The position numbers were made by a program, and so were the translations under genes. From a virus (taxonomy: Duplodnaviria > Heunggongvirae > Uroviricota > Caudoviricetes): a stretch of 36,638 nucleotides of DNA. A model generated the notes under the pieces. It worked only from the letters and a program-made list of their open reading frames with translations, was not told where the DNA came from and did no database searches. Below, one piece after another: positions 4,603-31,332 of this stretch. Within the stretch, counting starts at the first letter, position 1. Each line of letters begins with the position of its first letter. The stretch is taken from the IMG/VR virus record IMGVR_UViG_2541047702_000001; one strand, 5' to 3'.

Positions 4603-4706
4603 GTTAAATCTCCAGATAGTCGCAGCACCCGTTGCGCCGCATATCTGGTTATTCTATTACCTTAAAAACCACATATGGATAGAAAGACTGTGAATACGAA
4701 TAGATA

Positions 4707-4721
4707 TTACCTTTCGGGTAA
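4707..4721. promoter_or_regulatory. Operator-like palindrome TTACC-TTTCG-GGTAA (exact)
   Basis: Exact match to the recurring motif; lies between divergent tailspike gene and the LexA-box promoter. Confidence 0.6.
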
Positions 4722-4760
4722 TTTGCAAAACGTGCTGGATAGCAAACAAATTATTTGATA

Positions 4761-4776
4761 CTGTATAAATATACAG
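4761..4776. promoter_or_regulatory. LexA (SOS) box CTGTATAAATATACAG overlapping a promoter for the plus-strand ORF 4798-5055
   Basis: Perfect CTGT-N8-ACAG with AT-rich spacer, flanked TA...TT (TACTGTATAAATATACAGTT); possible -35 TTGATA at 4755-4760; GGAGAAG ribosome-binding site at 4786-4792. Confidence 0.75.
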
Positions 4777-4797
4777 TTATTGCATGGAGAAGATAAG

Positions 4798-19368: not shown

Positions 19369-19661
19369 TCCTGTTCACTGGCCTCTTTGGCCATCTTCAA
19401 ATACTGTTCAGGGCAATGCGCCATAACGCGCTGAAACAGTTCCAGCGCCAGATTGCGTTGCCCCTCATTAAATGCCATTGCCATAGCGTCCATCGGTGAG
19501 ATAGCGGAAAACACACGGCCTTTCTCCAGCACCGACCAGACAACGCGACGCCCCTGTTCACTGCTCATGACAAAGCGAATGTCATCAATTTCACGCTGTG
19601 CCATGTCACATTGCTTACGGGCGTTTTCTTCTTTCAGTTGATCATCTTCGTAATCTGTCAT
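19365..19661 (-). CDS. Hypothetical small acidic protein between portal and scaffold
   Basis: 98 aa ORF with overlapping start/stop to neighbours. Confidence 0.4.
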   Translation of the reverse strand: MTDYEDDQLKEENARKQCDMAQREIDDIRFVMSSEQGRRVVWSVLEKGRVFSAISPMDAMAMAFNEGQRNLALELFQRVMAHCPEQYLKMAKEASEQE

Positions 19662-21337
19662 TGTGATTGCCCACCCTGACCACTAACTGCATTCGCCATA
19701 GCTGACAAAACACTCGGCTCCGAAGTTTTAGCTTCGCTTAGCGTCTTGGCACCCTGTGCCGCCGCCATCCCCATCGCCATCATTTGTTGCTGCTGTTGTT
19801 GCTGTGCCCGTTGCTGGCGAGCCTGCTCAACCTGTTCCTGCGGAACAATGACGGTTGGAGACACTCCGGACATATCAGCGAATGCATCGATCGCCTGATC
19901 AACGTTGAGTTTGTCGAGAGCTTCTGGTTTCGCTTGCGCAAGTTGACCAATGAAGTTAACCGTGGACGCCAGACTGGACAGGCCGATAGACTTCTGCGCC
20001 TGAGCCATGACGGAAATGTATTCGACCTTCAGGGGCATGCCTTCCATCGCGTCAGGCGGTGGCGGCAACATGTTTTTACGCACCATCATCGAGAAAGTGC
20101 GGTCAATGAGAGGATTAAGACATTCGTCGTTCAGACGCTCCAGAACTGGCCCCAACATCAGAAGCTTTTCTTCTTTCATTTCGATCACTGCTTCAACAGG
20201 CATCGAGCGGGTATTGATGTTCTGCAACATCATGAACAGATCGACAAAGTAGGCGCTGTTAATGATTTGGCGGGTGTCCTGAATGTCTGCTACCAGATCT
20301 GCTGTACTGGGGTTAACCAGATAAGCAGGCCTGAAACCATCCTGACCAGTAATCTGATCGATATACGTGATGTCGCCAGGAAGAAGGGAGGCGCGCTGAT
20401 TCTTGAGGGAAGTCGGAGCAACCATCGGCGGATTGGTGGCTTTATCAATCAACTGCGACTTGCGCTTCTGGAGAAGCTGCAATGCCTTAACAGGTCCAAG
20501 CGCCAGCATACCAGGGCATGATGATCCATAAACATCTTCGCCGTTAACTTCCCAGCGCGGAGCCATAATTGGAAACTCATCGAATCCGGACTCACGCAAC
20601 AACTTGTCGTTATCGCCACCAACCTCGTAATAAACCGATTTGAATGGCTTGTTCTTGCTATCCAGCTTCGATGTATCGCGGTCAATGTTCGGGTAAACCG
20701 AATGCATCACTTCAATCCACTTCTCGTAGGTGCCGCTTTCCCACATGCTTTTTACGGATTCGCTGACGTTATTTAGCCCGAACTCCTGAACAAGCTGACG
20801 AACAGTCATAGAGAACTTGCGAAAACAGGTGTCCACACTGCCACGAGGTGAGTTAGCCAGGTAGTAACTGCCTATAGGGAATGGCATTGTGCGAATGATG
20901 TCCTCGTCATCCTCCAGCACCGCCATTGCACCAGTGCTGTATGTGCCGAGGCTTCCGTATAACTGCGGCAGCGACTGATAGAGATTCGACTTATTGAACA
21001 TATCGTTCATGCGGTTCTGCACCGCCTCAAGCCACAACTTAACAGGGCCATAATCCATCATTTCAGGATCTGGCGTAGCCAGGCGAAACCACGGACGCGC
21101 GGGGCTTGTGATGCCTGACATCATGCCGCTGGCGAGAGTGCGCGCCGCCATAGTCCCGGTCGAATCAATAATGCGTGTATTCCGTCGATCGTTACGGTTG
21201 ACCTCAGAAGTCAGAAAGCGGGAACCACGCGGGTTGATGTAATCACTCAACTCGCGCCAGTGCGGCTCGAACGACTGACGCTCGCTTTCAAGTTGTGCGA
21301 ACTGTTTGTTCAATCGCTCTTTAGTTGTTTCCGCCAT
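19658..21337 (-). CDS. Portal (head-tail connector) protein
   Basis: 559 aa, first large gene of the virion module after terminase, GGAG Shine-Dalgarno 8 nt upstream; C-terminal poly-Gln/Ala low-complexity tail. Confidence 0.6.
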   Translation of the reverse strand: MAETTKERLNKQFAQLESERQSFEPHWRELSDYINPRGSRFLTSEVNRNDRRNTRIIDSTGTMAARTLASGMMSGITSPARPWFRLATPDPEMMDYGPVKLWLEAVQNRMNDMFNKSNLYQSLPQLYGSLGTYSTGAMAVLEDDEDIIRTMPFPIGSYYLANSPRGSVDTCFRKFSMTVRQLVQEFGLNNVSESVKSMWESGTYEKWIEVMHSVYPNIDRDTSKLDSKNKPFKSVYYEVGGDNDKLLRESGFDEFPIMAPRWEVNGEDVYGSSCPGMLALGPVKALQLLQKRKSQLIDKATNPPMVAPTSLKNQRASLLPGDITYIDQITGQDGFRPAYLVNPSTADLVADIQDTRQIINSAYFVDLFMMLQNINTRSMPVEAVIEMKEEKLLMLGPVLERLNDECLNPLIDRTFSMMVRKNMLPPPPDAMEGMPLKVEYISVMAQAQKSIGLSSLASTVNFIGQLAQAKPEALDKLNVDQAIDAFADMSGVSPTVIVPQEQVEQARQQRAQQQQQQQMMAMGMAAAQGAKTLSEAKTSEPSVLSAMANAVSGQGGQSQ

Positions 21338-21351
21338 TTCAATGACTCCGG

Positions 21352-21558
21352 TTACTGACCAAGCAGCGTTTTACCGCTGGTATTAGCGGTTGATGTGTCG
21401 CCCTGAGAACCGGTAAGCAGCGTAGAACTACGACCAGCAGCAGCGCGACGGCGACGTGTTTCTTCGTCGCGGGCATCAACAACGGCGGCATCCTGCTCCT
21501 GTGGTGCTACCTGAACTTCTGGTGTTGCAGGCACTGATGGTGAGCTCCCCATGCACAT
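21352..21558 (-). CDS. Small hypothetical protein upstream of portal
   Basis: 68 aa; the initiation region CGGAGTCATTGATATG duplicates that of the portal gene (CGGAGTCATTGAAATG). Confidence 0.35.
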   Translation of the reverse strand: MCMGSSPSVPATPEVQVAPQEQDAAVVDARDEETRRRRAAAGRSSTLLTGSQGDTSTANTSGKTLLGQ

Positions 21559-21637
21559 ATCAATGACTCCGTACGCAATTAAATTATTACCAATTTAACC
21601 ACATATGATTTATTTATCGTAGATAGTTGACATTTAA

Positions 21638-21652
21638 CGCACAAATTATTAC
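21638..21652. promoter_or_regulatory. Operator-like palindrome TTACC-TTTCA-GGTAA (exact), with TTGACA -35-like hexamer 17 bp upstream
   Basis: Exact motif; TTGACA at 21616-21621; lies in the intergenic region between portal-operon start and the tRNA unit. Confidence 0.55.
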
Positions 21653-21983
21653 CTTTCAGGTAAGCAAAGGGTTCATTCCGGTTATTAACCTGACTGGCTT
21701 GTCGTTAAATTGAACAGGTGGAGTGAGCTTTTATTTTGAGCAGTACGGCGTATGGCACATGCGCCGATAGCGGTCTGGATACGTTTAAGGGGCACCCTCC
21801 CTTGCTCGGGCAAACGAACCAGGTAGCCGGAATGTGCAAGCCCCGTTCATATCGTCGGACCGAGGACTCACCATCCTGGCGATTCGGTGTGACGCCTCGG
21901 AAGAGACGAGGGTACAACGATGAGAGCATTTATGGAGCCGCGACAAAGTGTGGCGCCTTAACAGGCTAAGTGCTCTCAGCGTT

Positions 21984-22060
21984 GTGGCATTAGCTCAGTT
22001 GGACAGAGCAACCGCCTTCTAAGCGGTTGGTCGCAGGTTCGAATCCTGCATGCCACGCCA
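21984..22060 (+). tRNA. tRNA-Arg, anticodon UCU (reads AGA)
   Basis: Manual cloverleaf: acceptor GTGGCAT/ATGCCAC, D-stem GCTC/GAGC, anticodon stem ACCGC/GCGGT with loop CTTCTAA, T-stem GCAGG/CCTGC with loop TTCGAAT, discriminator G and encoded CCA; 77 nt. Confidence 0.85.
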
Positions 22061-22104
22061 GAATCACGCCTAAGGACCGTGATGCCAGAAGTTCCAGGTG
22101 CTTG

Positions 22105-22146
22105 GCGGTGATAGTTTCCCTTGAAGGACTATCACCGCCCTTTTTA
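22105..22146 (+). terminator. Rho-independent terminator downstream of tRNA-Arg
   Basis: GGCGGTGATAGT ... ACTATCACCGCC perfect 12-bp stem followed by CTTTTT. Confidence 0.75.
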
Positions 22147-22223
22147 CAGCAGGACGCCATTGCGATGACTTCATGCTGTAAACCCGTACAGCCACGGAAG
22201 GCATAACTCATTGCTTCCAGTTC

Positions 22224-22247
22224 GCCCGGTTCGCCGGGCATTTTTTT
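22224..22247 (+). terminator. Terminator-like hairpin (GCCCGG-TTCG-CCGGGC then T7) ending 1 nt before the gp49-like ribosome-binding site; candidate attenuator
   Basis: 6-bp GC stem, tetraloop, 7 T; ends at 22247, AAGGTGAG follows at 22248 and ATG at 22259. Confidence 0.6.
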
Positions 22248-22258
22248 AAGGTGAGATT

Positions 22259-22633
22259 ATGAACGACCAGCAAATCGAAAAAGAAATCGTTGAGAAAGGC
22301 AAAACGGCACCGCGTGTAACACCCGAGAAAATTGAAGGCCTCATTTGCAGTGAGCATTTTTTCACTGCTGCGCAGGGTGACCACCAGGCTAAAGAAGATG
22401 ACCTTATTTATAATCCGGAGCCTTATGTCGAAGCCACCCCTGATGCTCTGCACCTTCTCACTTTCTGCGTACTGGTGCTGAAGAATGGCTTCACCGTCAC
22501 CGGAGAGAGTGCCTGTGCAAGCCCGGAAAACTTTGATGCAGAAATTGGTCGGAAGATTGCCCGGCAGAATGCTGTAAACAAAATCTGGATGCTCGAAGGT
22601 TACTTGCTGAAGCAGAAGTTAAGCGAGCAATAA
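22259..22633 (+). CDS. Gp49-like phage protein (N4 gp49 / Sf6 gp66 family, recalled), function unknown; moron-type insertion
   Basis: 124 aa; ribosome-binding site AAGGTGAG; opposite orientation to flanking structural genes; family assignment from recalled motif LTFCVLVLKNGFTVTGESACASPENFD, unverified. Confidence 0.5.
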   Translation: MNDQQIEKEIVEKGKTAPRVTPEKIEGLICSEHFFTAAQGDHQAKEDDLIYNPEPYVEATPDALHLLTFCVLVLKNGFTVTGESACASPENFDAEIGRKIARQNAVNKIWMLEGYLLKQKLSEQ

Positions 22634-22653
22634 CACCGTGGCATGTCACAAAC

Positions 22654-22680
22654 AGCCAGCCTATGAGCTGGCTTTGTTTT
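22654..22680. terminator. Intrinsic terminator AGCCAGC-CTATGA-GCTGGCT then TTGTTTT after the gp49-like gene (plus strand; weaker on minus strand after terL)
   Basis: 7-bp stem followed by T-rich tract; preceded by the palindrome variant GTGGCATGTCAC. Confidence 0.6.
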
Positions 22681-22723
22681 ATCCTCACCAGAGGATATCA
22701 ACGACATTATCCCCACCAGCGGA

Positions 22724-24199
22724 TTAAGCATAAGGGTCATAATCCGTTATGGCCCTTCCCTGCTGGCTTTGCTGTCCTGGTATATTTATGCGTTTCGAGA
22801 CCGGGAAAGCAAACGTCAGCAGTAGCGCATCGCCTTTACCAGGAGAACGCCCAAGACGCTCTTTGATATCTTCCTTCGGTTCGATAACGATTTTACCGTC
22901 CACACGAACTTTGTACTCTGCCGCCGACAGGTCGTCTGCAGTTTCCTGGTCATCCAGCATGCCGCCCAGCCTCAGCCATGTCTTACATGAGTTGAACATC
23001 TCCCCACGCTTGTTAAGCATCTGCGGGTCAGTGGACGCACCGCCGAACGGAACAAGTTGCCATGTACGTCCCCAGCCATCACCGATTGACTTCAAACCGG
23101 TTCCATAACCGAAGTCGATGAACACCGCGTCAGCCTGATACTGGTCTTCAAAGTCAGCGATACGCTTCGCCATAATCAGATCGTCGGTGGTCTTGTTACC
23201 AGTCCATAGCACCTTACTGTGCAGCCCCTGCCGCAGGTATATCACAGCGTCATCAACGCCGGAGTATGCCGGGTCAACGCCGATTATCACCGGAGCATGT
23301 GCAACCTGCGCAGCGGTTACCACCCGTTTCATTGCCTCGTCAGTAAGGCCGGTAGGGATAAACTGCAATTCAGATGCATCCGGGAATATGCCGCGCACAC
23401 GGATTTTAACGAAGTCGCTGTCTTCCCCGTAGTCATCAACCCATTTCTGCAACTGCTGTTTGTTAGTGCCTTCCACCGTCCGGCTGTCAATCTGCGCAGT
23501 TTTCCAGCGGTGTTTATATTTGCGGAAACATTCGCGGAAACGCCCGGTGTTACGTGTAGGGTTTCCGAATGCCACCCAGATAATCTCAGTGTCTTCGTCC
23601 GTCAGCGCACCCTCTGCTACCTCCCACACCAGATCGGCAATGTTGGATGCTTCATCGAATACCACGATGATACGCTTACGCTCGTTGTGCAGCCCGGCGA
23701 ACGCCTCTGTGTTGTGCTCAGACCACGGTATTGCGTCAGCTCGCCAGCGCTTGTCGTGGCCTGGGTCATTGCTGTACATCGCCGTGGCGGTGCAGGTGAA
23801 CCACTCTTTCGTGATAGCCAGATTCGACCATTTGATGATTTCCGGCCATGTCTTGGTGCGCAGCTGGTTGTCGGTGTTGGCGGTCACCACGACCTTACAA
23901 TCCTCGCAAGTGGACATGCCCCAGTTGATCAGCATTGAGATGAATGCGGATTTACCAATACCGTGACCAGAAGCGCGTGCCAGCATAAGCGGCTGATATC
24001 GCGTCTCTGGATTCTGCAGGTGATCACGTATCTCTCGGAACGCATCGGCCTGCCACTGACGTGGACCGGTGGCATGTGCCAGTTCAGTCCCCTCTTCCCC
24101 CCACGGGAACGCATAGAGGGCATAACCAAGCGGATCGTGAGTAAACCCTGCAATATCCTCGATCAACTGCTCTTCAGGAGATAACACTGTATCTGTCAC
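22724..24199 (-). CDS. Terminase large subunit
   Basis: 491 aa; P-loop-like ASGHGIGKS near the N-terminus, acidic residues typical of the nuclease half; overlaps small subunit stop; precedes portal module. Confidence 0.75.
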   Translation of the reverse strand: MTDTVLSPEEQLIEDIAGFTHDPLGYALYAFPWGEEGTELAHATGPRQWQADAFREIRDHLQNPETRYQPLMLARASGHGIGKSAFISMLINWGMSTCEDCKVVVTANTDNQLRTKTWPEIIKWSNLAITKEWFTCTATAMYSNDPGHDKRWRADAIPWSEHNTEAFAGLHNERKRIIVVFDEASNIADLVWEVAEGALTDEDTEIIWVAFGNPTRNTGRFRECFRKYKHRWKTAQIDSRTVEGTNKQQLQKWVDDYGEDSDFVKIRVRGIFPDASELQFIPTGLTDEAMKRVVTAAQVAHAPVIIGVDPAYSGVDDAVIYLRQGLHSKVLWTGNKTTDDLIMAKRIADFEDQYQADAVFIDFGYGTGLKSIGDGWGRTWQLVPFGGASTDPQMLNKRGEMFNSCKTWLRLGGMLDDQETADDLSAAEYKVRVDGKIVIEPKEDIKERLGRSPGKGDALLLTFAFPVSKRINIPGQQSQQGRAITDYDPYA

Positions 24200-24792
24200 T
24201 GATTACCATCCTGACGTTCTTTGAGTCGCTTCCTGGCTGCTGCTATGCGATCAGCAATTGTCACATTCACATTAACATCCAGGCGTTCTTTGAATGCGTT
24301 GACGTCGACGTGCTTACCAATCAGTTCGAGGTTCTTCACCTTGTCAGGCCATTTAATTTTTTTGAGGATTGTCTCTATCGAATCCTCGTTCATGTTCATG
24401 ATGGTCGATGACAGATCAAAGCCGCTAAGCGTAGTGCGCCAGATTTTCGGCCACTCGCGGATTGGCTTAAGGCTCCCATCGTCGTTGAGGATGTCGATCA
24501 CGTCCATCTGGTCGATCTCCACCAGGCGCATGAGAACGTAATCAGCACTGACGCGCATTCGTTTGTTGCGCTCCTCCATCAACTCGGCAATCCGTTTTTG
24601 AATGCGTTCATCGCGCATCATGACACTGGCTTTAACTGCCGCTGTATTTGGGGAGAATCCTGCATTAATCGCTGCCTGAGTCTGGTTTTCAGGCGTTTTG
24701 ATGTATGACTGGCAATAAGCCTCCTGCATTGCTGTGAGCGGCTTAAATTGCGTTGATTTGCGTTTATAGGTTTTAGGTTCAGCAGGCATCAT
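24196..24792 (-). CDS. Terminase small subunit
   Basis: ATGATG at 24792/24789 (ORF-track start 24870 is an upstream extension); basic N-terminus, overlaps terL start; first gene after a terminator. Confidence 0.55.
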   Translation of the reverse strand: MMPAEPKTYKRKSTQFKPLTAMQEAYCQSYIKTPENQTQAAINAGFSPNTAAVKASVMMRDERIQKRIAELMEERNKRMRVSADYVLMRLVEIDQMDVIDILNDDGSLKPIREWPKIWRTTLSGFDLSSTIMNMNEDSIETILKKIKWPDKVKNLELIGKHVDVNAFKERLDVNVNVTIADRIAAARKRLKERQDGNQ

Positions 24793-24824
24793 AACCACCG
24801 TGGTAATAGTTACCGTTGTGGTAA
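24792..24824. promoter_or_regulatory. Two tandem operator-like sites (TAACC-ACCGT-GGTAA at 24792-24806, 1 mismatch; TTACC-GTTGT-GGTAA at 24810-24824, exact) overlapping the terS initiation region
   Basis: Appears as direct repeat GTGGTAATAGT(T)ACC x2 just upstream of ATG 24792. Confidence 0.5.
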
Positions 24825-24843
24825 TAGTACCATGCAAAATAAA

Positions 24844-24861
24844 GCCGCCATAGTTGGCGGC
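24844..24861 (-). terminator. Intrinsic terminator GCCGCC-AACTAT-GGCGGC followed by TTTATTTTG on the minus strand, immediately upstream of terS (late-operon entry point)
   Basis: 6-bp GC stem, T-rich tail on minus strand. Confidence 0.55.
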
Positions 24862-24910
24862 AGTATTCAAAACACATCAAATTCATCATGCATAATCTAC
24901 TCGTGACATG

Positions 24911-28308: not shown

Positions 28309-28385
28309 TTACCCCTTAGGTAATTAAAAACCACATAAGACATGAAATCAATAGACGTTAGAACATTTTATTACCCACTAGGTAA
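28309..28385. promoter_or_regulatory. Two exact operator-like palindromes (TTACC-CCTTA-GGTAA 28309-28323; TTACC-CACTA-GGTAA 28371-28385) 62 bp apart
   Basis: Both exact; located between P-like gene stop and nuclease gene start, the first only 4 bp from the ATG. Confidence 0.55.
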
Positions 28386-30011: not shown

Positions 30012-30281
30012 TCAGCTTGAATGTTGTGGGGAGGAATTAATCATGATCTGCTTAATCTCTGCCCTGATACGACGGTTTGATTCCATGGTGCACTCAACAC
30101 AGTGTCCGTTGTAAACCCAGCGTTCACTGTCATGTCCGTGCTTACATGTTTTTCCGGTGTAGTAGCGTTTAAGTCCGCGCTTTGCGGCATCAATACGTGT
30201 AATGATTTCCATGGTAAGCCCTGTTATTGGTATTGGGATTACGGTCATTTTGTGCTGACACAAAAAAAAGATCAACCACAT
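30012..30281 (-). CDS. Small Cys/His-containing protein at the CII position (between cro-like gene and O)
   Basis: Motif YYTGKTCKHGHDSERWVYNGHCVEC; start uncertain (ATG 30281, 30248 or 30212, none with a good Shine-Dalgarno). Confidence 0.35.
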   Translation of the reverse strand: MWLIFFLCQHKMTVIPIPITGLTMEIITRIDAAKRGLKRYYTGKTCKHGHDSERWVYNGHCVECTMESNRRIRAEIKQIMINSSPQHSS

Positions 30282-30292
30282 TTGGTTTTTTA

Positions 30293-30747: not shown

Positions 30748-31332
30748 ATGAAAAGTATCCAGGACGTCCGCAGGCAAAATCTCAACGACTTGATCGACCG
30801 TGAATTCAATGGTGTTCAGACGCGGATGGCAGAAAAACTTGGAACTCAGGCAAATCTGGTAAACCGCTGGGCTCTTGGCAAGAAGGTTATCGGCGACCAG
30901 GTTGCGCGAAAAATTGAAGCTGCCGCCAATAAACCCCGTAACTGGCTTGATATCGATCGCTCGCTTTCTCAGGAAGGTTTTCAGCCTGTCGGCCCAAGCG
31001 ACATTGGTCAGCTGGCGGCTCACAACCTGGAACGCTGGATGAGCGAAAGCCGCGACCTTTCAACACAGGGAAAACTTCACCGCGCATCCGGCGTCGCCCA
31101 GGTGACAATCAGCCGCCTGTTAAACAATGAGGTCAGCGTTTCCATTTCCACCCTGGAGAATGTTGCATCCGCATTCGGGCGTCACGGCTATGAATTACTG
31201 ATTCACCCGCACGACCCTGCGACCATCAACTATGACCGCTCGCGCTACGCATTGTTACCCGAAACCGAGAAAGCAAAGATCGAAAGTTACATTGAATTTG
31301 TCATCAACCAGAACGAAAAAAACAAACAATAA
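30748..31332 (+). CDS. Prophage repressor (CI-position) with two tandem XRE-type HTH domains and no recognisable S24 peptidase domain
   Basis: 194 aa; two HTH-like segments (about residues 20-70 and 95-150); C-terminus lacks Ser/Lys peptidase motifs; followed by terminator and a second operator cluster; weak ribosome-binding site (possibly leaderless-like). Confidence 0.6.
   Translation: MKSIQDVRRQNLNDLIDREFNGVQTRMAEKLGTQANLVNRWALGKKVIGDQVARKIEAAANKPRNWLDIDRSLSQEGFQPVGPSDIGQLAAHNLERWMSESRDLSTQGKLHRASGVAQVTISRLLNNEVSVSISTLENVASAFGRHGYELLIHPHDPATINYDRSRYALLPETEKAKIESYIEFVINQNEKNKQ

What the first reader, a model, noticed from the sequence alone, without database searches (positions are those of the whole stretch)
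22150..22633. Gp49-like moron gene preceded by a terminator-like hairpin abutting its ribosome-binding site and a CTGT-N8-ACAG element
The ORF 22259-22633 is reverse-oriented relative to the virion genes. A strong terminator-like hairpin with a T7 tract (22224-22247) ends 1 nt before the ribosome-binding site, and another terminator (22105-22146) lies upstream. The gene therefore either needs read-through or antitermination (an attenuator or conditional switch), or its transcript starts inside this 100-bp window with the hairpin as a 5-prime UTR element. A LexA-like half-site pair CTGTAAACCCGTACAG (22176-22191) sits in that window, though its GC-rich spacer makes it a weak candidate.
Basis: seen in the sequence. 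Interest (0 to 1): 0.55.

Follow-up and report, generated by a model that had tools for sequence, protein, structure and literature searches.

The report
Anti-CBASS sponge gene behind conserved terminators
The small reverse-oriented gene is a member of the known Acb4 family of phage proteins that soak up bacterial immune signals, and the hairpin in front of it is the conserved end of an upstream phage RNA operon behind which related phages plug in different anti-defence genes.

Summary
The window is a phiV10/epsilon15-like (Uetakevirus) prophage. ORF 22259-22633 belongs to PF13876, which is now known as the Acb4 family of anti-CBASS cyclic-dinucleotide sponges; the Pfam score and the fold match to SPO1 Acb4 both support this.

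The hairpin plus T7 (22224-22247) does not belong to the ORF. It is the distal intrinsic terminator (T2) of a conserved + strand RNA module: a promoter with an operator-like palindrome, a ~240-nt structured RNA, tRNA-Arg, hairpin-terminator T1, a conserved spacer, then T2. In more than 100 related loci, homology runs up to the T-run and usually a shared RBS, then breaks. About 15 different genes follow, including three classes of immune-signal sponge (Acb4, Tad2-like, Acb2/Tad1-like). The T2 stem shows compensatory changes.

No promoter-like site lies between the tRNA and the ORF. I therefore infer that acb4 is expressed by read-through or antitermination of T1 and T2 from the upstream, probably repressor-controlled, promoter. 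This is inferred, not shown.

The CTGT-N8-ACAG site is not a LexA box: it has 8 of 20 mismatches to the consensus and one half is lost in relatives. A real LexA box lies at 4759-4778.

The most novel item is outside the finding: the upstream structured RNA is unannotated, has no Rfam family, shows strong covariation, and occurs in about 40% of complete E. coli genomes.

The parts
21627..21655 (+). Promoter-like site TTGACA-17 nt-TACCTT. It is the best candidate start of the + strand unit.
   Evidence: Relaxed scan gives 9/12 matches with a perfect -35. TTGACA/TTGACC and ATTATTACCTTT are conserved in E. coli, Salmonella and Klebsiella relatives. The -10 is weak, and the stricter scan did not call the site.
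21649..21663 (.). Operator-like palindrome TTACCTTTCAGGTAA overlapping the -10.
   Evidence: TTACC-N5-GGTAA occurs 12 times in the window against 0.62 expected. The copies sit mostly in intergenic regulatory regions, including beside the HTH repressor gene at 30748-31332. The binding protein is inferred, not shown.
21746..21984 (+). Conserved structured RNA element. The core is 21746-21911. A closing stem, 21915-21928 paired with 21971-21984, abuts the tRNA 5' end.
   Evidence: Alignment of 24 diverse copies. 28 to 32 pairs are 99% paired. 11 to 12 pairs carry compensatory changes, against 5.8 +/- 1.2 in shuffles and 2 to 3 in slid controls, and one pseudoknot covaries. G-U pairs fit the + strand. 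No Rfam family matches.
21984..22060 (+). tRNA-Arg (anticodon TCT).
   Evidence: ARAGORN. Rfam tRNA model, 73.3 bits.
22104..22146 (+). T1: 14-bp hairpin followed by CTTTTTAC, an intrinsic terminator-like site after the tRNA.
   Evidence: It is conserved, with compensatory stem variants (GATGG/CTATC against GGCAG/CTGACC), in more than 100 loci. It resembles DicF only weakly: 16.9 bits against a gathering score of 48.
22147..22223 (+). Conserved spacer X. It contains the invariant ACGCCATTGCGATGAC and the CTGT-N8-ACAG site at 22176-22191. Its function is unknown.
   Evidence: Alignments. The CTGT half is part of a 9-nt self-complementarity, 22143-22151 with 22174-22182. The ACAG half is lost in Salmonella and Klebsiella relatives. 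No promoter-like site is present.
22224..22247 (+). T2: GCCCGG-TTCG-CCGGGC, then A and T7. It is the distal intrinsic terminator of the RNA module and the upstream boundary of the cargo slot.
   Evidence: Two stem pairs covary (GCCCGG/CCGGGC against GCCCAC/GTGGGC), and the T-run is 5 to 10 nt long in 104 loci. Homology between loci ends just after it. It is homologous to the terminator of the phage P1 Pban leader.
22248..22255 (+). Ribosome-binding site AAGGTGAG, shared by many different cargo genes.
   Evidence: AAGGTGA/AAGGTGT or AGAGAGGA follows the T-run directly in 82 of 112 loci.
22259..22633 (+). acb4-like gene: PF13876, N4 Gp49 / Sf6 gene 66 family, a predicted cyclic-dinucleotide sponge.
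   Evidence: Pfam 118 bits against a cutoff of 27. Sequence hit to PDB 9e4w, SPO1 Acb4, at E 0.0039. AF2 model with pLDDT 84, whose only meaningful Foldseek PDB hits are 9e4w chains. The paper PMC11722364 equates PF13876 with Acb4.
22654..22680 (.). T3: hairpin AGCCAGC...GCTGGCT between the convergent acb4 and terL genes. T-rich tail on the + strand, weaker tail on the - strand.
   Evidence: Annotated as a putative rho-independent terminator in phiV10.

Best explanation
ORF 22259-22633 encodes an Acb4-family protein. [quoted passage not shown]

The gene sits in a hypervariable cargo slot of phiV10/epsilon15-like phages. The hairpin plus T7 in front of it (T2) is not a device of this gene. It is the conserved distal intrinsic terminator of a + strand RNA operon embedded between terL and the portal gene. 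That operon runs: an operator-controlled promoter (~21627-21663), a ~240-nt structured RNA, tRNA-Arg, hairpin-terminator T1, conserved spacer X, then T2.

Different phages carry different genes immediately behind the T-run. Most use the same RBS and have no promoter. The cassette's other boundary is the conserved CATGTCACA / T3 / terL end.

acb4 is therefore transcribed only by polymerases that started at the upstream promoter and passed both T1 and T2. This could happen by leak or by antitermination. The result would be graded output, tRNA > X RNA > cargo mRNA, and cargo expression tied to the phage's early, probably repressor-controlled, programme.

What is shown: the family and fold of the protein, the conservation and covariation of the hairpins, the position of the homology break, and the absence of a promoter-like site. 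What is inferred: actual termination, read-through, the timing of expression, and the identity of the operator-binding protein.
For: Protein:
- PF13876 at E 2.4e-34, with full domain coverage.
- phmmer hit to SPO1 Acb4, PDB 9e4w.
- The AF2 model (pLDDT 84) matches only 9e4w chains in the PDB: probability 1.0, TM 0.6-0.71, next hit at E 0.16.
- PMC11722364 reports that PF13876 is the Acb4 family and that 8 of 8 tested homologues bind 3'3'-cGAMP.

Module:
- Continuous homology across E. coli, Salmonella and Klebsiella phages from 21559 to the end of the T-run.
- Identity to the window among 90 other distinct loci is 0.69-0.96 before the T-run end, 0.73 over the next 10 nt, and about 0.35 after that.

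Cargo diversity, from 107 loci:
- Acb4-like 43, phrog_4780 22, phrog_4846 15, Tad2-like (PF11195) 7, phrog_18493 4.
- One Acb2/Tad1-hairpin protein (PF24729), plus others.

Hairpins are under selection:
- T2 is GCCCGG/CCGGGC in about 80 loci and GCCCAC/GTGGGC in 14. T1 also has compensatory variants.
- If T1 stopped all transcription there would be no selection on T2. So transcription must reach T2 (inference).

Promoters:
- No promoter-like site scoring 8/12 or better lies in 22061-22262, and none in 21300-23000 under the strict scan.
- The best upstream site is TTGACA-17-TACCTT at 21627. It is overlapped by a palindrome present 12 times in the window against 0.62 expected.
- About a quarter of loci instead carry a promoter-like piece with the same palindrome between T2 and the cargo. 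This suggests T2 is an effective barrier when no such promoter is present.

Same layout elsewhere:
- The mEp460 PL leader has promoter, structured element, T1-like hairpin terminator, a large hairpin, then the first gene.
- The P1 Pban leader has a terminator homologous to T2.
Against: - There are no transcript data of any kind.
- T1 and T2 both look strong. Passive read-through of the pair might be too low for a protein that must be abundant enough to sequester a signal.
- The upstream promoter has a weak -10 (TACCTT), and the strict scan does not call it.
- Non-sigma-70 or activator-dependent promoters in X cannot be excluded.
- X is very conserved, and its function is unexplained.
- Of the ten SPO1 Acb4 ligand-contact residues, only some are kept. 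F48, F62 and I66 are conserved. E49, Y57, T70 and probably K36 are not. The ligand could therefore differ.
Confidence: 0.6

Rival explanations
1. This refines the main explanation. The conserved ~240-nt structured RNA at the 5' end of the unit would act in cis as a processive antiterminator, as HK022 put RNA does. Only polymerases that transcribed it would read through T1 and T2 and express the cargo. Unmodified polymerases would stop and yield only the small RNAs.
For: - The element is a real structured RNA with pseudoknot support.
- In unrelated contexts it sits 10-40 nt downstream of promoter-like sites.
- In N-less lambdoid phages (mEp460, cdtI, PhiR63_1, Stx2c phages) it sits directly after cI, where the PL leader or nutL would be. 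There it is followed by a T1-like terminator hairpin and a large hairpin before the first gene.
- In P1 it lies in the C1-controlled ban operon, just upstream of ban.
- Two strong terminators in front of a protein that must be made in quantity fit active antitermination better than leak.
Against: - It has no sequence similarity to HK022 put, and the element is absent from HK022.
- It is much larger than put.
- In P1 no terminator lies between the element and ban.
- Its 3' end abuts a tRNA. That arrangement would release it by RNase P as a free RNA, which suits a trans-acting role equally well.
- Nothing functional has been tested.
Confidence: 0.25
2. The gene would be an autonomous moron. A promoter inside 22147-22223 would start the transcript, and the hairpin would be a 5' UTR stabiliser or conditional attenuator. 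The 13-codon mini-ORF at 22165-22206 could serve as a leader peptide.
For: - X is strongly conserved and unexplained.
- A mini-ORF encoding MTSCCKPVQPRKA exists, with AGGA 10 nt upstream.
- The simple scans used cover only sigma-70 consensus promoters.
Against: - No site scoring 8/12 or better lies in 22061-22262. Shuffles give 0.6 per segment and the observed count is 0.
- The MFE and centroid folds of 22147-22250 keep the terminator hairpin, and no alternative pairing involves its arms.
- The mini-ORF stop codon and its AGGA are not conserved. In Klebsiella and Salmonella relatives the frame runs through T2.
- The same X and T2 precede many unrelated genes.
Confidence: 0.1
3. X plus T2 would be a small regulatory RNA in its own right, Hfq-type, either processed from the tRNA transcript as a 3' trailer or terminated at T2. 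The cargo gene would merely sit behind it.
For: - The layout fits: a conserved ~100 nt ending in a GC hairpin and U7.
- CAUUGCUUCCAGU at 22208-22220 is identical to the RyhB core. It gives a weak RyhB model hit of 18.1 bits, E 0.36 to 2.1.
- The same GCUUCCAGUU-hairpin-U run ends the P1 Pban leader, which P1's annotators call the 'dicF-like region'.
Against: - The score is far below RyhB's gathering threshold of 55 bits.
- The RyhB-like stretch is replaced in most Klebsiella-type copies.
- It has no promoter of its own.
- This reading is compatible with the main explanation rather than an alternative to it.
Confidence: 0.15
4. LexA would bind CTGTAAACCCGTACAG (22176-22191) and place the gene under SOS control.
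For: The CTGT-N8-ACAG pattern is present. The pattern as a whole is enriched in the window, 4 copies against 0.44 expected.
Against: - It has 8 of 20 mismatches to TACTGTATATATATACAGTA, counted from the sequence, and a GC-rich spacer. A scan allowing 3 mismatches finds only the site at 4759-4778.
- The ACAG half is lost in Salmonella (CGTA-AGCC) and Klebsiella (CTGTGACACCCAGCC) relatives, while the flanks stay conserved.
- There is no promoter here for it to repress.
- The CTGT half is explained by RNA self-complementarity with 22143-22151.
Confidence: 0.03

Closest known systems
Acb4 (anti-CBASS 4) of Bacillus phage SPO1; Pfam PF13876 (N4 Gp49 / Sf6 gene 66 family); PDB 9e4w
   Same: The window protein matches the same Pfam family across the full domain. 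It has the same fold by Foldseek, with beta-strands flanked by helices and a long C-terminal helix. The hydrophobic and stacking ligand contacts F48, F62 and I66 are kept. The paper reports that all 8 tested family members bind 3'3'-cGAMP, and that those from Gram-negative hosts also bind 3'3'-cAA.
   Different: It shares about 25% identity with SPO1 Acb4 and carries an extra ~25-residue N-terminal extension. The guanine-reading E49 and K36, and the phosphate contacts Y57 and T70, are not conserved in the pairwise alignment. Ligand preference is therefore untested. Tetramer formation was not modelled.
Phage P1 ban operon leader (C1-controlled Pban, the annotated 'dicF-like region' with its terminator, tRNAs, then ban)
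   Same: Both are repressor-controlled early units that begin with non-coding RNA pieces and tRNAs. Both contain a terminator homologous to T2 (GCTTCCAGTTTGCCCATCTTCGGGTGGGCGTTTTTT) upstream of the protein genes. Both contain the same structured element, which in P1 lies between trnI and ban.
   Different: The order of the pieces differs. P1 has three other tRNAs and the tci genes in between. P1's downstream gene is a replicative helicase, not an anti-defence cargo.
Promoter-proximal terminators overridden by antitermination in lambdoid phages (lambda PR'-tR'/Q, which gives StxS in Stx phages; HK022 PL-put)
   Same: The layout matches: a promoter, a short or structured RNA, intrinsic terminator(s), then the genes. 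The short RNA appears as a by-product. The same structured element occupies the PL-leader position in N-less lambdoid phages.
   Different: No Q, N or put homologue was identified here. Antitermination is a hypothesis for this locus. The element is unrelated in sequence to put.
Lambdoid 'morons' and phage anti-defence hot spots
   Same: The gene is accessory and is present or absent between close relatives. It sits between essential virion genes, in opposite orientation, with a terminator behind it. The slot holds known counter-defence genes: Acb4, Tad2-like and Acb2/Tad1-like.
   Different: A classical moron brings its own promoter. This variant has none, and a terminator lies directly in front of its RBS. 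There is no base-composition anomaly: the ORF is 48% GC against 49% for the window.
LexA (SOS) box
   Same: Only the outer CTGT...ACAG tetranucleotides match.
   Different: The spacer is GC-rich, the site has 8 of 20 mismatches to the consensus, it is not conserved, and it does not lie at a promoter. The window's genuine box is TACTGTATAAATATACAGTT at 4759-4778.

Membership tests
Acb4 / PF13876 cyclic-dinucleotide sponge | Match to the Pfam family model above the curated cutoff, over the whole domain | tested here: met
   118.1 bits against a cutoff of 27, model positions 1-82 of 82. Homologues carry PF13876 throughout.
Acb4 / PF13876 cyclic-dinucleotide sponge | Fold of the solved founding member (SPO1 Acb4, 9e4w) | tested here: met
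   AF2 model with pLDDT 84. The top 13 Foldseek PDB hits are all 9e4w chains, with probability 1.0 and TM (target) 0.51-0.71. The next hit has E 0.16.
Acb4 / PF13876 cyclic-dinucleotide sponge | Conservation of the ligand-contact residues K36, F48, E49, V56, Y57, F62, N63, I66, T70 and K81 | tested here: inconclusive
   In the phmmer alignment, read against the residue list from the paper, F48, F62 and I66 are kept. E49 becomes T, Y57 becomes A, T70 becomes I and K36 becomes D (next to a gap). N63 makes backbone contacts, so its side chain is uninformative.
Acb4 / PF13876 cyclic-dinucleotide sponge | Tetramer formation, binding of 3'3'-cGAMP, and rescue of phage from CBASS | not testable with these tools
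   This needs biochemistry and plaque assays. The paper reports binding for 8 of 8 tested homologues, but not for this protein.
Intrinsic (Rho-independent) terminator, for T2 at 22224-22247 | GC-rich stem-loop followed within 0-2 nt by a run of at least 5 U | tested here: met
   Stem of 6 G-C pairs, 4-nt loop, then A and U7. Fold energy -12.7 kcal/mol, z = -3.3.
Intrinsic (Rho-independent) terminator, for T2 at 22224-22247 | Structure maintained by selection | tested here: met
   Two stem pairs change together (GG/CC to AC/GT) in 14 loci. One locus has an inverted loop. The T-run is kept at 5-10 nt.
Intrinsic (Rho-independent) terminator, for T2 at 22224-22247 | RNA 3' ends produced at the U-run | not testable with these tools
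   Needs Term-seq or in vitro transcription.
Transcription attenuator or riboswitch-type conditional terminator | A mutually exclusive antiterminator pairing that involves a terminator arm | tested here: not met
   The MFE and centroid folds of 22147-22250 both keep the hairpin. No complement of 8 nt or more to the region was found apart from 22143-22151 with 22174-22182, which does not touch T2.
Transcription attenuator or riboswitch-type conditional terminator | A conserved leader peptide with a conserved stop position | tested here: not met
   The 13-codon ORF at 22165-22206 is not conserved in length or SD sequence in Salmonella and Klebsiella copies.
LexA / SOS box | Close match to TACTGTATATATATACAGTA with an AT-rich spacer | tested here: not met
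   8 of 20 mismatches, counted from the sequence. A scan allowing 3 mismatches returns only 4759-4778.
LexA / SOS box | Both half-sites conserved in orthologous loci | tested here: not met
   The ACAG half is lost in Salmonella-type and Klebsiella-type copies.
Moron (autonomous promoter-gene-terminator cassette) | Variable presence between close relatives, and a terminator downstream | tested here: met
   About 15 alternative genes occupy the slot. T3 lies at 22654-22673.
Moron (autonomous promoter-gene-terminator cassette) | A promoter of its own | tested here: not met
   No sigma-70-like site in 22061-22262. The RBS starts directly after the T-run. Other cargo variants do carry a promoter-like piece.
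DicF sRNA (for T1) and RyhB sRNA (for X/T2) | Rfam covariance model score at or above the gathering threshold | tested here: not met
   DicF 16.9 bits against 48. RyhB 18.1 bits against 55. No DicF hit at gathering score in related loci either.

The most novel reading that the evidence does not exclude
The unannotated ~240-nt pseudoknotted RNA at 21746-21984 heads this unit. It also heads the PL operon of N-less lambdoid phages and sits upstream of ban in the P1 ban operon. It could be a new class of phage cis-acting RNA, for example a put-like processive antiterminator. Such an RNA would license read-through of the tandem terminators, so that tRNA, small RNAs and anti-defence cargo such as acb4 are expressed only from the phage's own early promoter.
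Probability: 0.2. Interest if true: 0.8.

Novelty: new member of a known kind. Interest (0 to 1): 0.5.

Why it matters
The gene itself can now be named: it is a likely anti-CBASS sponge in a temperate E. coli phage. That bears on phage-host range and on prophage-carrying strains.

The comparative picture is more useful than the single gene. One fixed junction, the T-run of T2 plus a shared RBS, marks a slot where phiV10/epsilon15-like phages of E. coli, Salmonella and Klebsiella swap anti-defence genes. Three known sponge families occur there. So do several abundant families of unknown function (phrog_4846, phrog_18493, phrog_27507, phrog_4780). These are good candidates for new counter-defence proteins.

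The layout also raises a concrete and testable question: how does a protein needed in quantity get expressed behind two strong terminators? That question points to the conserved, unannotated structured RNA upstream as a possible regulator.

Tried and rejected
- LexA control: rejected on consensus match and conservation.
- A promoter inside the 100-bp window: none found by the strict scan or by a relaxed scan of at least 8/12.
- An attenuator with alternative pairing or a leader peptide: rejected.
- T2 acting on the - strand: the reverse strand has no U-run after the stem (read from the sequence).
- A known RNA family for T1, X/T2 or the upstream element: only sub-threshold DicF, RyhB and AgvB hits in the window, and no DicF in related loci.
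- HK022 put as a homologue of the upstream element: no similarity.
- The 'GTGGTGAAT...CCACAAC' pieces that replace the tRNA in some loci: ARAGORN does not call them as tRNAs.
- A base-composition anomaly of the ORF: none.
- Function of other cargo families: Pfam and PDB sequence searches gave nothing for phrog_4846 or for the small ORF inserted after T1 in BUCT711.
- Literature: no paper in the library prints the element's invariant 17-mer. The P1 genome paper is not held in the library.
- The genome-contig scan with a 17-mer returned many chance hits, of which about 69 were expected. These were filtered out by requiring the flanking motifs.
Full report
**What the window is.** The region matches phiV10, TL-2011b, O157 typing phages 9 and 10 and other Uetakevirus genomes at about 96% identity. 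The window is an integrated copy in an E. coli chromosome; the element just upstream of the ORF is 100% identical to strain GPEC1405. The virion genes are on the - strand: terS 24196-24870, terL 22724-24199, a small ORF at 21352-21558, and the portal gene at 19658-21337. Between terL and the small ORF lies a 1.1-kb island read on the + strand. The finding covers its right-hand third.

**Observation.** The finding did not mention that a tRNA-Arg(TCT) gene lies at 21984-22060. The "upstream terminator" therefore follows a tRNA.

**The protein.**
- The ORF matches PF13876 (N4 Gp49 / Sf6 gene 66) at 118 bits.
- Its only sequence hit in the PDB is 9e4w, Acb4 of Bacillus phage SPO1.
- An AF2 model built on 39 homologues (pLDDT 84) matches only the 9e4w chains by Foldseek.
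- The paper that describes Acb4 states that PF13876 is the Acb4 family. It counts 1,331 members, describes tetrameric sponges for 3'3'-cGAMP, and reports that 8 of 8 tested homologues bind the ligand.
- The aromatic and hydrophobic ligand contacts are kept in the window protein. The guanine-specific contacts and some phosphate contacts are not. Family membership is therefore solid, but ligand preference is open.

**What the hairpin belongs to.** I aligned the island with phiV10, TL-2011b, EC.W1-9, SPN9TCW and two Klebsiella phages. Homology is uninterrupted from the small ORF's start, through the tRNA, T1 and spacer X, to the end of the T7 tract. The sequences then diverge.

A scan of viral contigs for the invariant 16-mer of X gave 120 loci. 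Among 90 other distinct sequences, identity to the window is:
- 0.69-0.96 in the 40 nt before the end of the T-run,
- 0.73 in the next 10 nt,
- about 0.35 after that.

In 82 of 112 loci an RBS (AAGGTGA..., AGAGAGGA) follows the T-run directly. In about a quarter of loci a ~60-nt promoter-like piece comes first.

The gene behind the junction falls into about 15 unrelated families:
- Acb4-like, 43 of 107 loci.
- A coiled-coil membrane protein, phrog_4780, 22 loci.
- phrog_4846, 15 loci.
- Tad2-like (PF11195), 7 loci.
- phrog_18493, 4 loci.
- One Acb2/Tad1-hairpin protein (PF24729), plus others.

Three of these are known immune-signal sponges, so this is an anti-defence cargo slot. T2 is its fixed upstream border. 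CATGTCACA / T3 / the terL end is its downstream border.

**Are the hairpins functional?** The T2 stem is GCCCGG/CCGGGC in about 80 loci and GCCCAC/GTGGGC in 14, which is two compensatory pairs. T1 has its own compensatory variants. The T-run is kept. P1's Pban leader ends in a homologous terminator. Selection on T2 implies that transcription reaches it, so T1 cannot be absolute. An RBS and a conserved ORF directly behind T2 imply that some transcription also passes T2. Both points are inferences.

**Where transcription starts.** No sigma-70-like site exists between the tRNA and the ORF. The best site is TTGACA-17-TACCTT at 21627-21655. It is conserved across genera and overlapped by TTACCTTTCAGGTAA.

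The palindrome TTACC-N5-GGTAA occurs 12 times in the window against 0.62 expected. The copies cluster in intergenic regulatory regions, including the region next to the HTH repressor gene. The same palindrome lies inside the promoter-like pieces that precede some cargo genes. A published study of the related phage ZX5 shows that the orthologous HTH protein is the lysogeny repressor. I therefore read the + strand island as an early, repressor-controlled unit. The operator assignment is inferred.

**Mechanism.** acb4 is the last and most attenuated product of this unit. Polymerases start near 21660, make the structured RNA and the tRNA, and mostly stop at T1 or T2. The fraction that continues makes the acb4 mRNA, which ends at T3.

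Whether the passage is passive leak or active antitermination cannot be decided here. Two strong terminators in front of a protein that must be abundant enough to sequester a signal favour antitermination. The N-less lambdoid phages carry the same arrangement of promoter, element, terminators and first gene.

**Rejected readings.**
- LexA. The site has 8 of 20 mismatches to the consensus. Its ACAG half is lost in relatives. The CTGT half belongs to a 9-nt RNA self-complementarity. The true SOS box is at 4759-4778.
- Attenuator. No alternative pairing involves T2, and there is no conserved leader peptide.
- Autonomous moron. The gene has no promoter and no composition anomaly.
- DicF or RyhB membership. 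Both score far below threshold.

**The upstream element.** The 240 nt before the tRNA consist of invariant blocks separated by indel-rich stretches.
- The core recurs in P1, P7, D6 and SJ46 (between trnI and ban in P1).
- It also recurs in the lambdoid phages cdtI, mEp460, PhiR63_1 and Stx2c phages (directly after cI), in Stenotrophomonas phages, and in many Enterobacterales genomes.
- It is present in 2,153 of 5,426 complete E. coli genomes, and no feature was annotated under it except one 'hypothetical protein' in the 40 listed hits.
- On 24 diverse copies, 99% of cells in 28-32 predicted pairs are paired. 11-12 pairs carry compensatory changes, against 5.8 +/- 1.2 in shuffles and 2-3 in slid controls. 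A loop-to-3' pseudoknot covaries in three sequences. G-U pairs fit the + strand.
- No Rfam family matches, and no paper in the library prints its invariant 17-mer.
- Its function is unknown. A cis antiterminator and a processed trans-acting RNA are both open possibilities.

**Verdict.** It is partly wrong: the site is not LexA, the hairpin is not an ORF-specific switch, and the gene is not a self-contained moron. The gene is a new member of a known family. The conserved cargo junction and the RNA operon in front of it are what deserve follow-up.

Noticed in passing
window 21746-21984 (core 21746-21911; closing stem 21915-21928 with 21971-21984): An unannotated, strongly covarying, pseudoknotted RNA-like element lies directly 5' of the tRNA-Arg. 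It has no Rfam family. It occurs in P1-like phages, in N-less lambdoid phages just after cI, in Stenotrophomonas phages, and in 2,153 of 5,426 complete E. coli genomes. It is a candidate new RNA family: either a cis antiterminator or a trans-acting RNA released by RNase P.
   Followed up: partly
window 4759-4778: A near-consensus LexA box, TACTGTATAAATATACAGTT, has 2 mismatches. It lies about 40 nt from an operator-like palindrome (4707-4721) and an AACCACATATG motif (4667-4677). It probably places the phage antirepressor region under SOS control.
   Followed up: no
window 4707, 21649, 24792, 24810, 28309, 28371, 30293, 30630, 30678, 31390, 31452, 36474: The palindrome TTACC-N5-GGTAA occurs 12 times against 0.62 expected. 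The copies are mostly intergenic and often followed by TAATAx, which resembles a -10. This is probably the operator of the phage repressor (HTH protein, 30748-31332). Two copies lie immediately upstream of the likely true terS start.
   Followed up: partly
window 4667-4677, 21597-21607, 28329-28339, 30274-30284: A second motif, AACCACATWWG, occurs 4 times against 0.10 expected. Each copy is 9 to 42 nt from a TTACC-N5-GGTAA site. The copy at 21597 lies in a 45-nt block that is invariant across E. coli, Salmonella and Klebsiella phages, upstream of the small ORF and portal genes. It may be a second regulator site or part of a late promoter.
   Followed up: no
window 22093-22146 and 22193-22247; L130 269-370 (P1): T1 resembles DicF (UUGGCGGU...ACCGCCCUUUUU; 16.9 bits, below threshold). 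The 3' part of X has 13 nt identical to the RyhB core (CAUUGCUUCCAGU; 18.1 bits, below threshold). The same GCUUCCAGUU-hairpin-U run ends the 'dicF-like region' of the P1 Pban leader. A shared phage small-RNA module is possible.
   Followed up: partly
L007 (Klebsiella phage BUCT711) ~2700-2940 and L072: A second cargo insertion point lies directly after the T-run of T1. It holds a ~230-nt cassette with an 81-codon ORF and its own terminator hairpin, flanked by TTTAC on both sides. In this module, new genes seem to enter right behind terminator U-runs.
   Followed up: partly
L145, L156 (Citrobacter), L131/L132/L008 (lambdoid phages), L172, L175: In some loci the tRNA-Arg slot is occupied by a ~120-nt piece, 'GTGGTGAAT...CCACAAC', with an acceptor-like terminal stem. 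ARAGORN does not call it a tRNA, and it matches no Rfam family. The flanking sequences are the same as in the window. Its nature is unexplained.
   Followed up: partly
L001 3193-3444 (PhiV10p04), L003 2193-2444, L004 2700-2951; L005 2845-3351 (SPN9TCW_003): Probable annotation errors in public records. An 83-codon ORF is annotated antisense to the tRNA-Arg, T1 and X in phiV10, TL-2011b and EC.W1-9. The start of SPN9TCW_003 is placed inside spacer X, so the annotated protein reads through the T2 terminator. The real start is at L005 2936, after the RBS.
   Followed up: partly
L070 (T1) and one locus in the list (T2): Single loci carry the loop of T1 or of T2 as its exact reverse complement (for example TTCG to CGAA) with the stems unchanged. 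These are hairpin-mediated DNA inversions.
   Followed up: no
L131 206-394, L132 208-396 (- strand of the loci): The lambdoid phages that carry the structured element also carry P1-type C4 antisense RNA and isrK RNA at Rfam gathering score, next to an antirepressor gene. They therefore share several regulatory RNA modules with P1.
   Followed up: no
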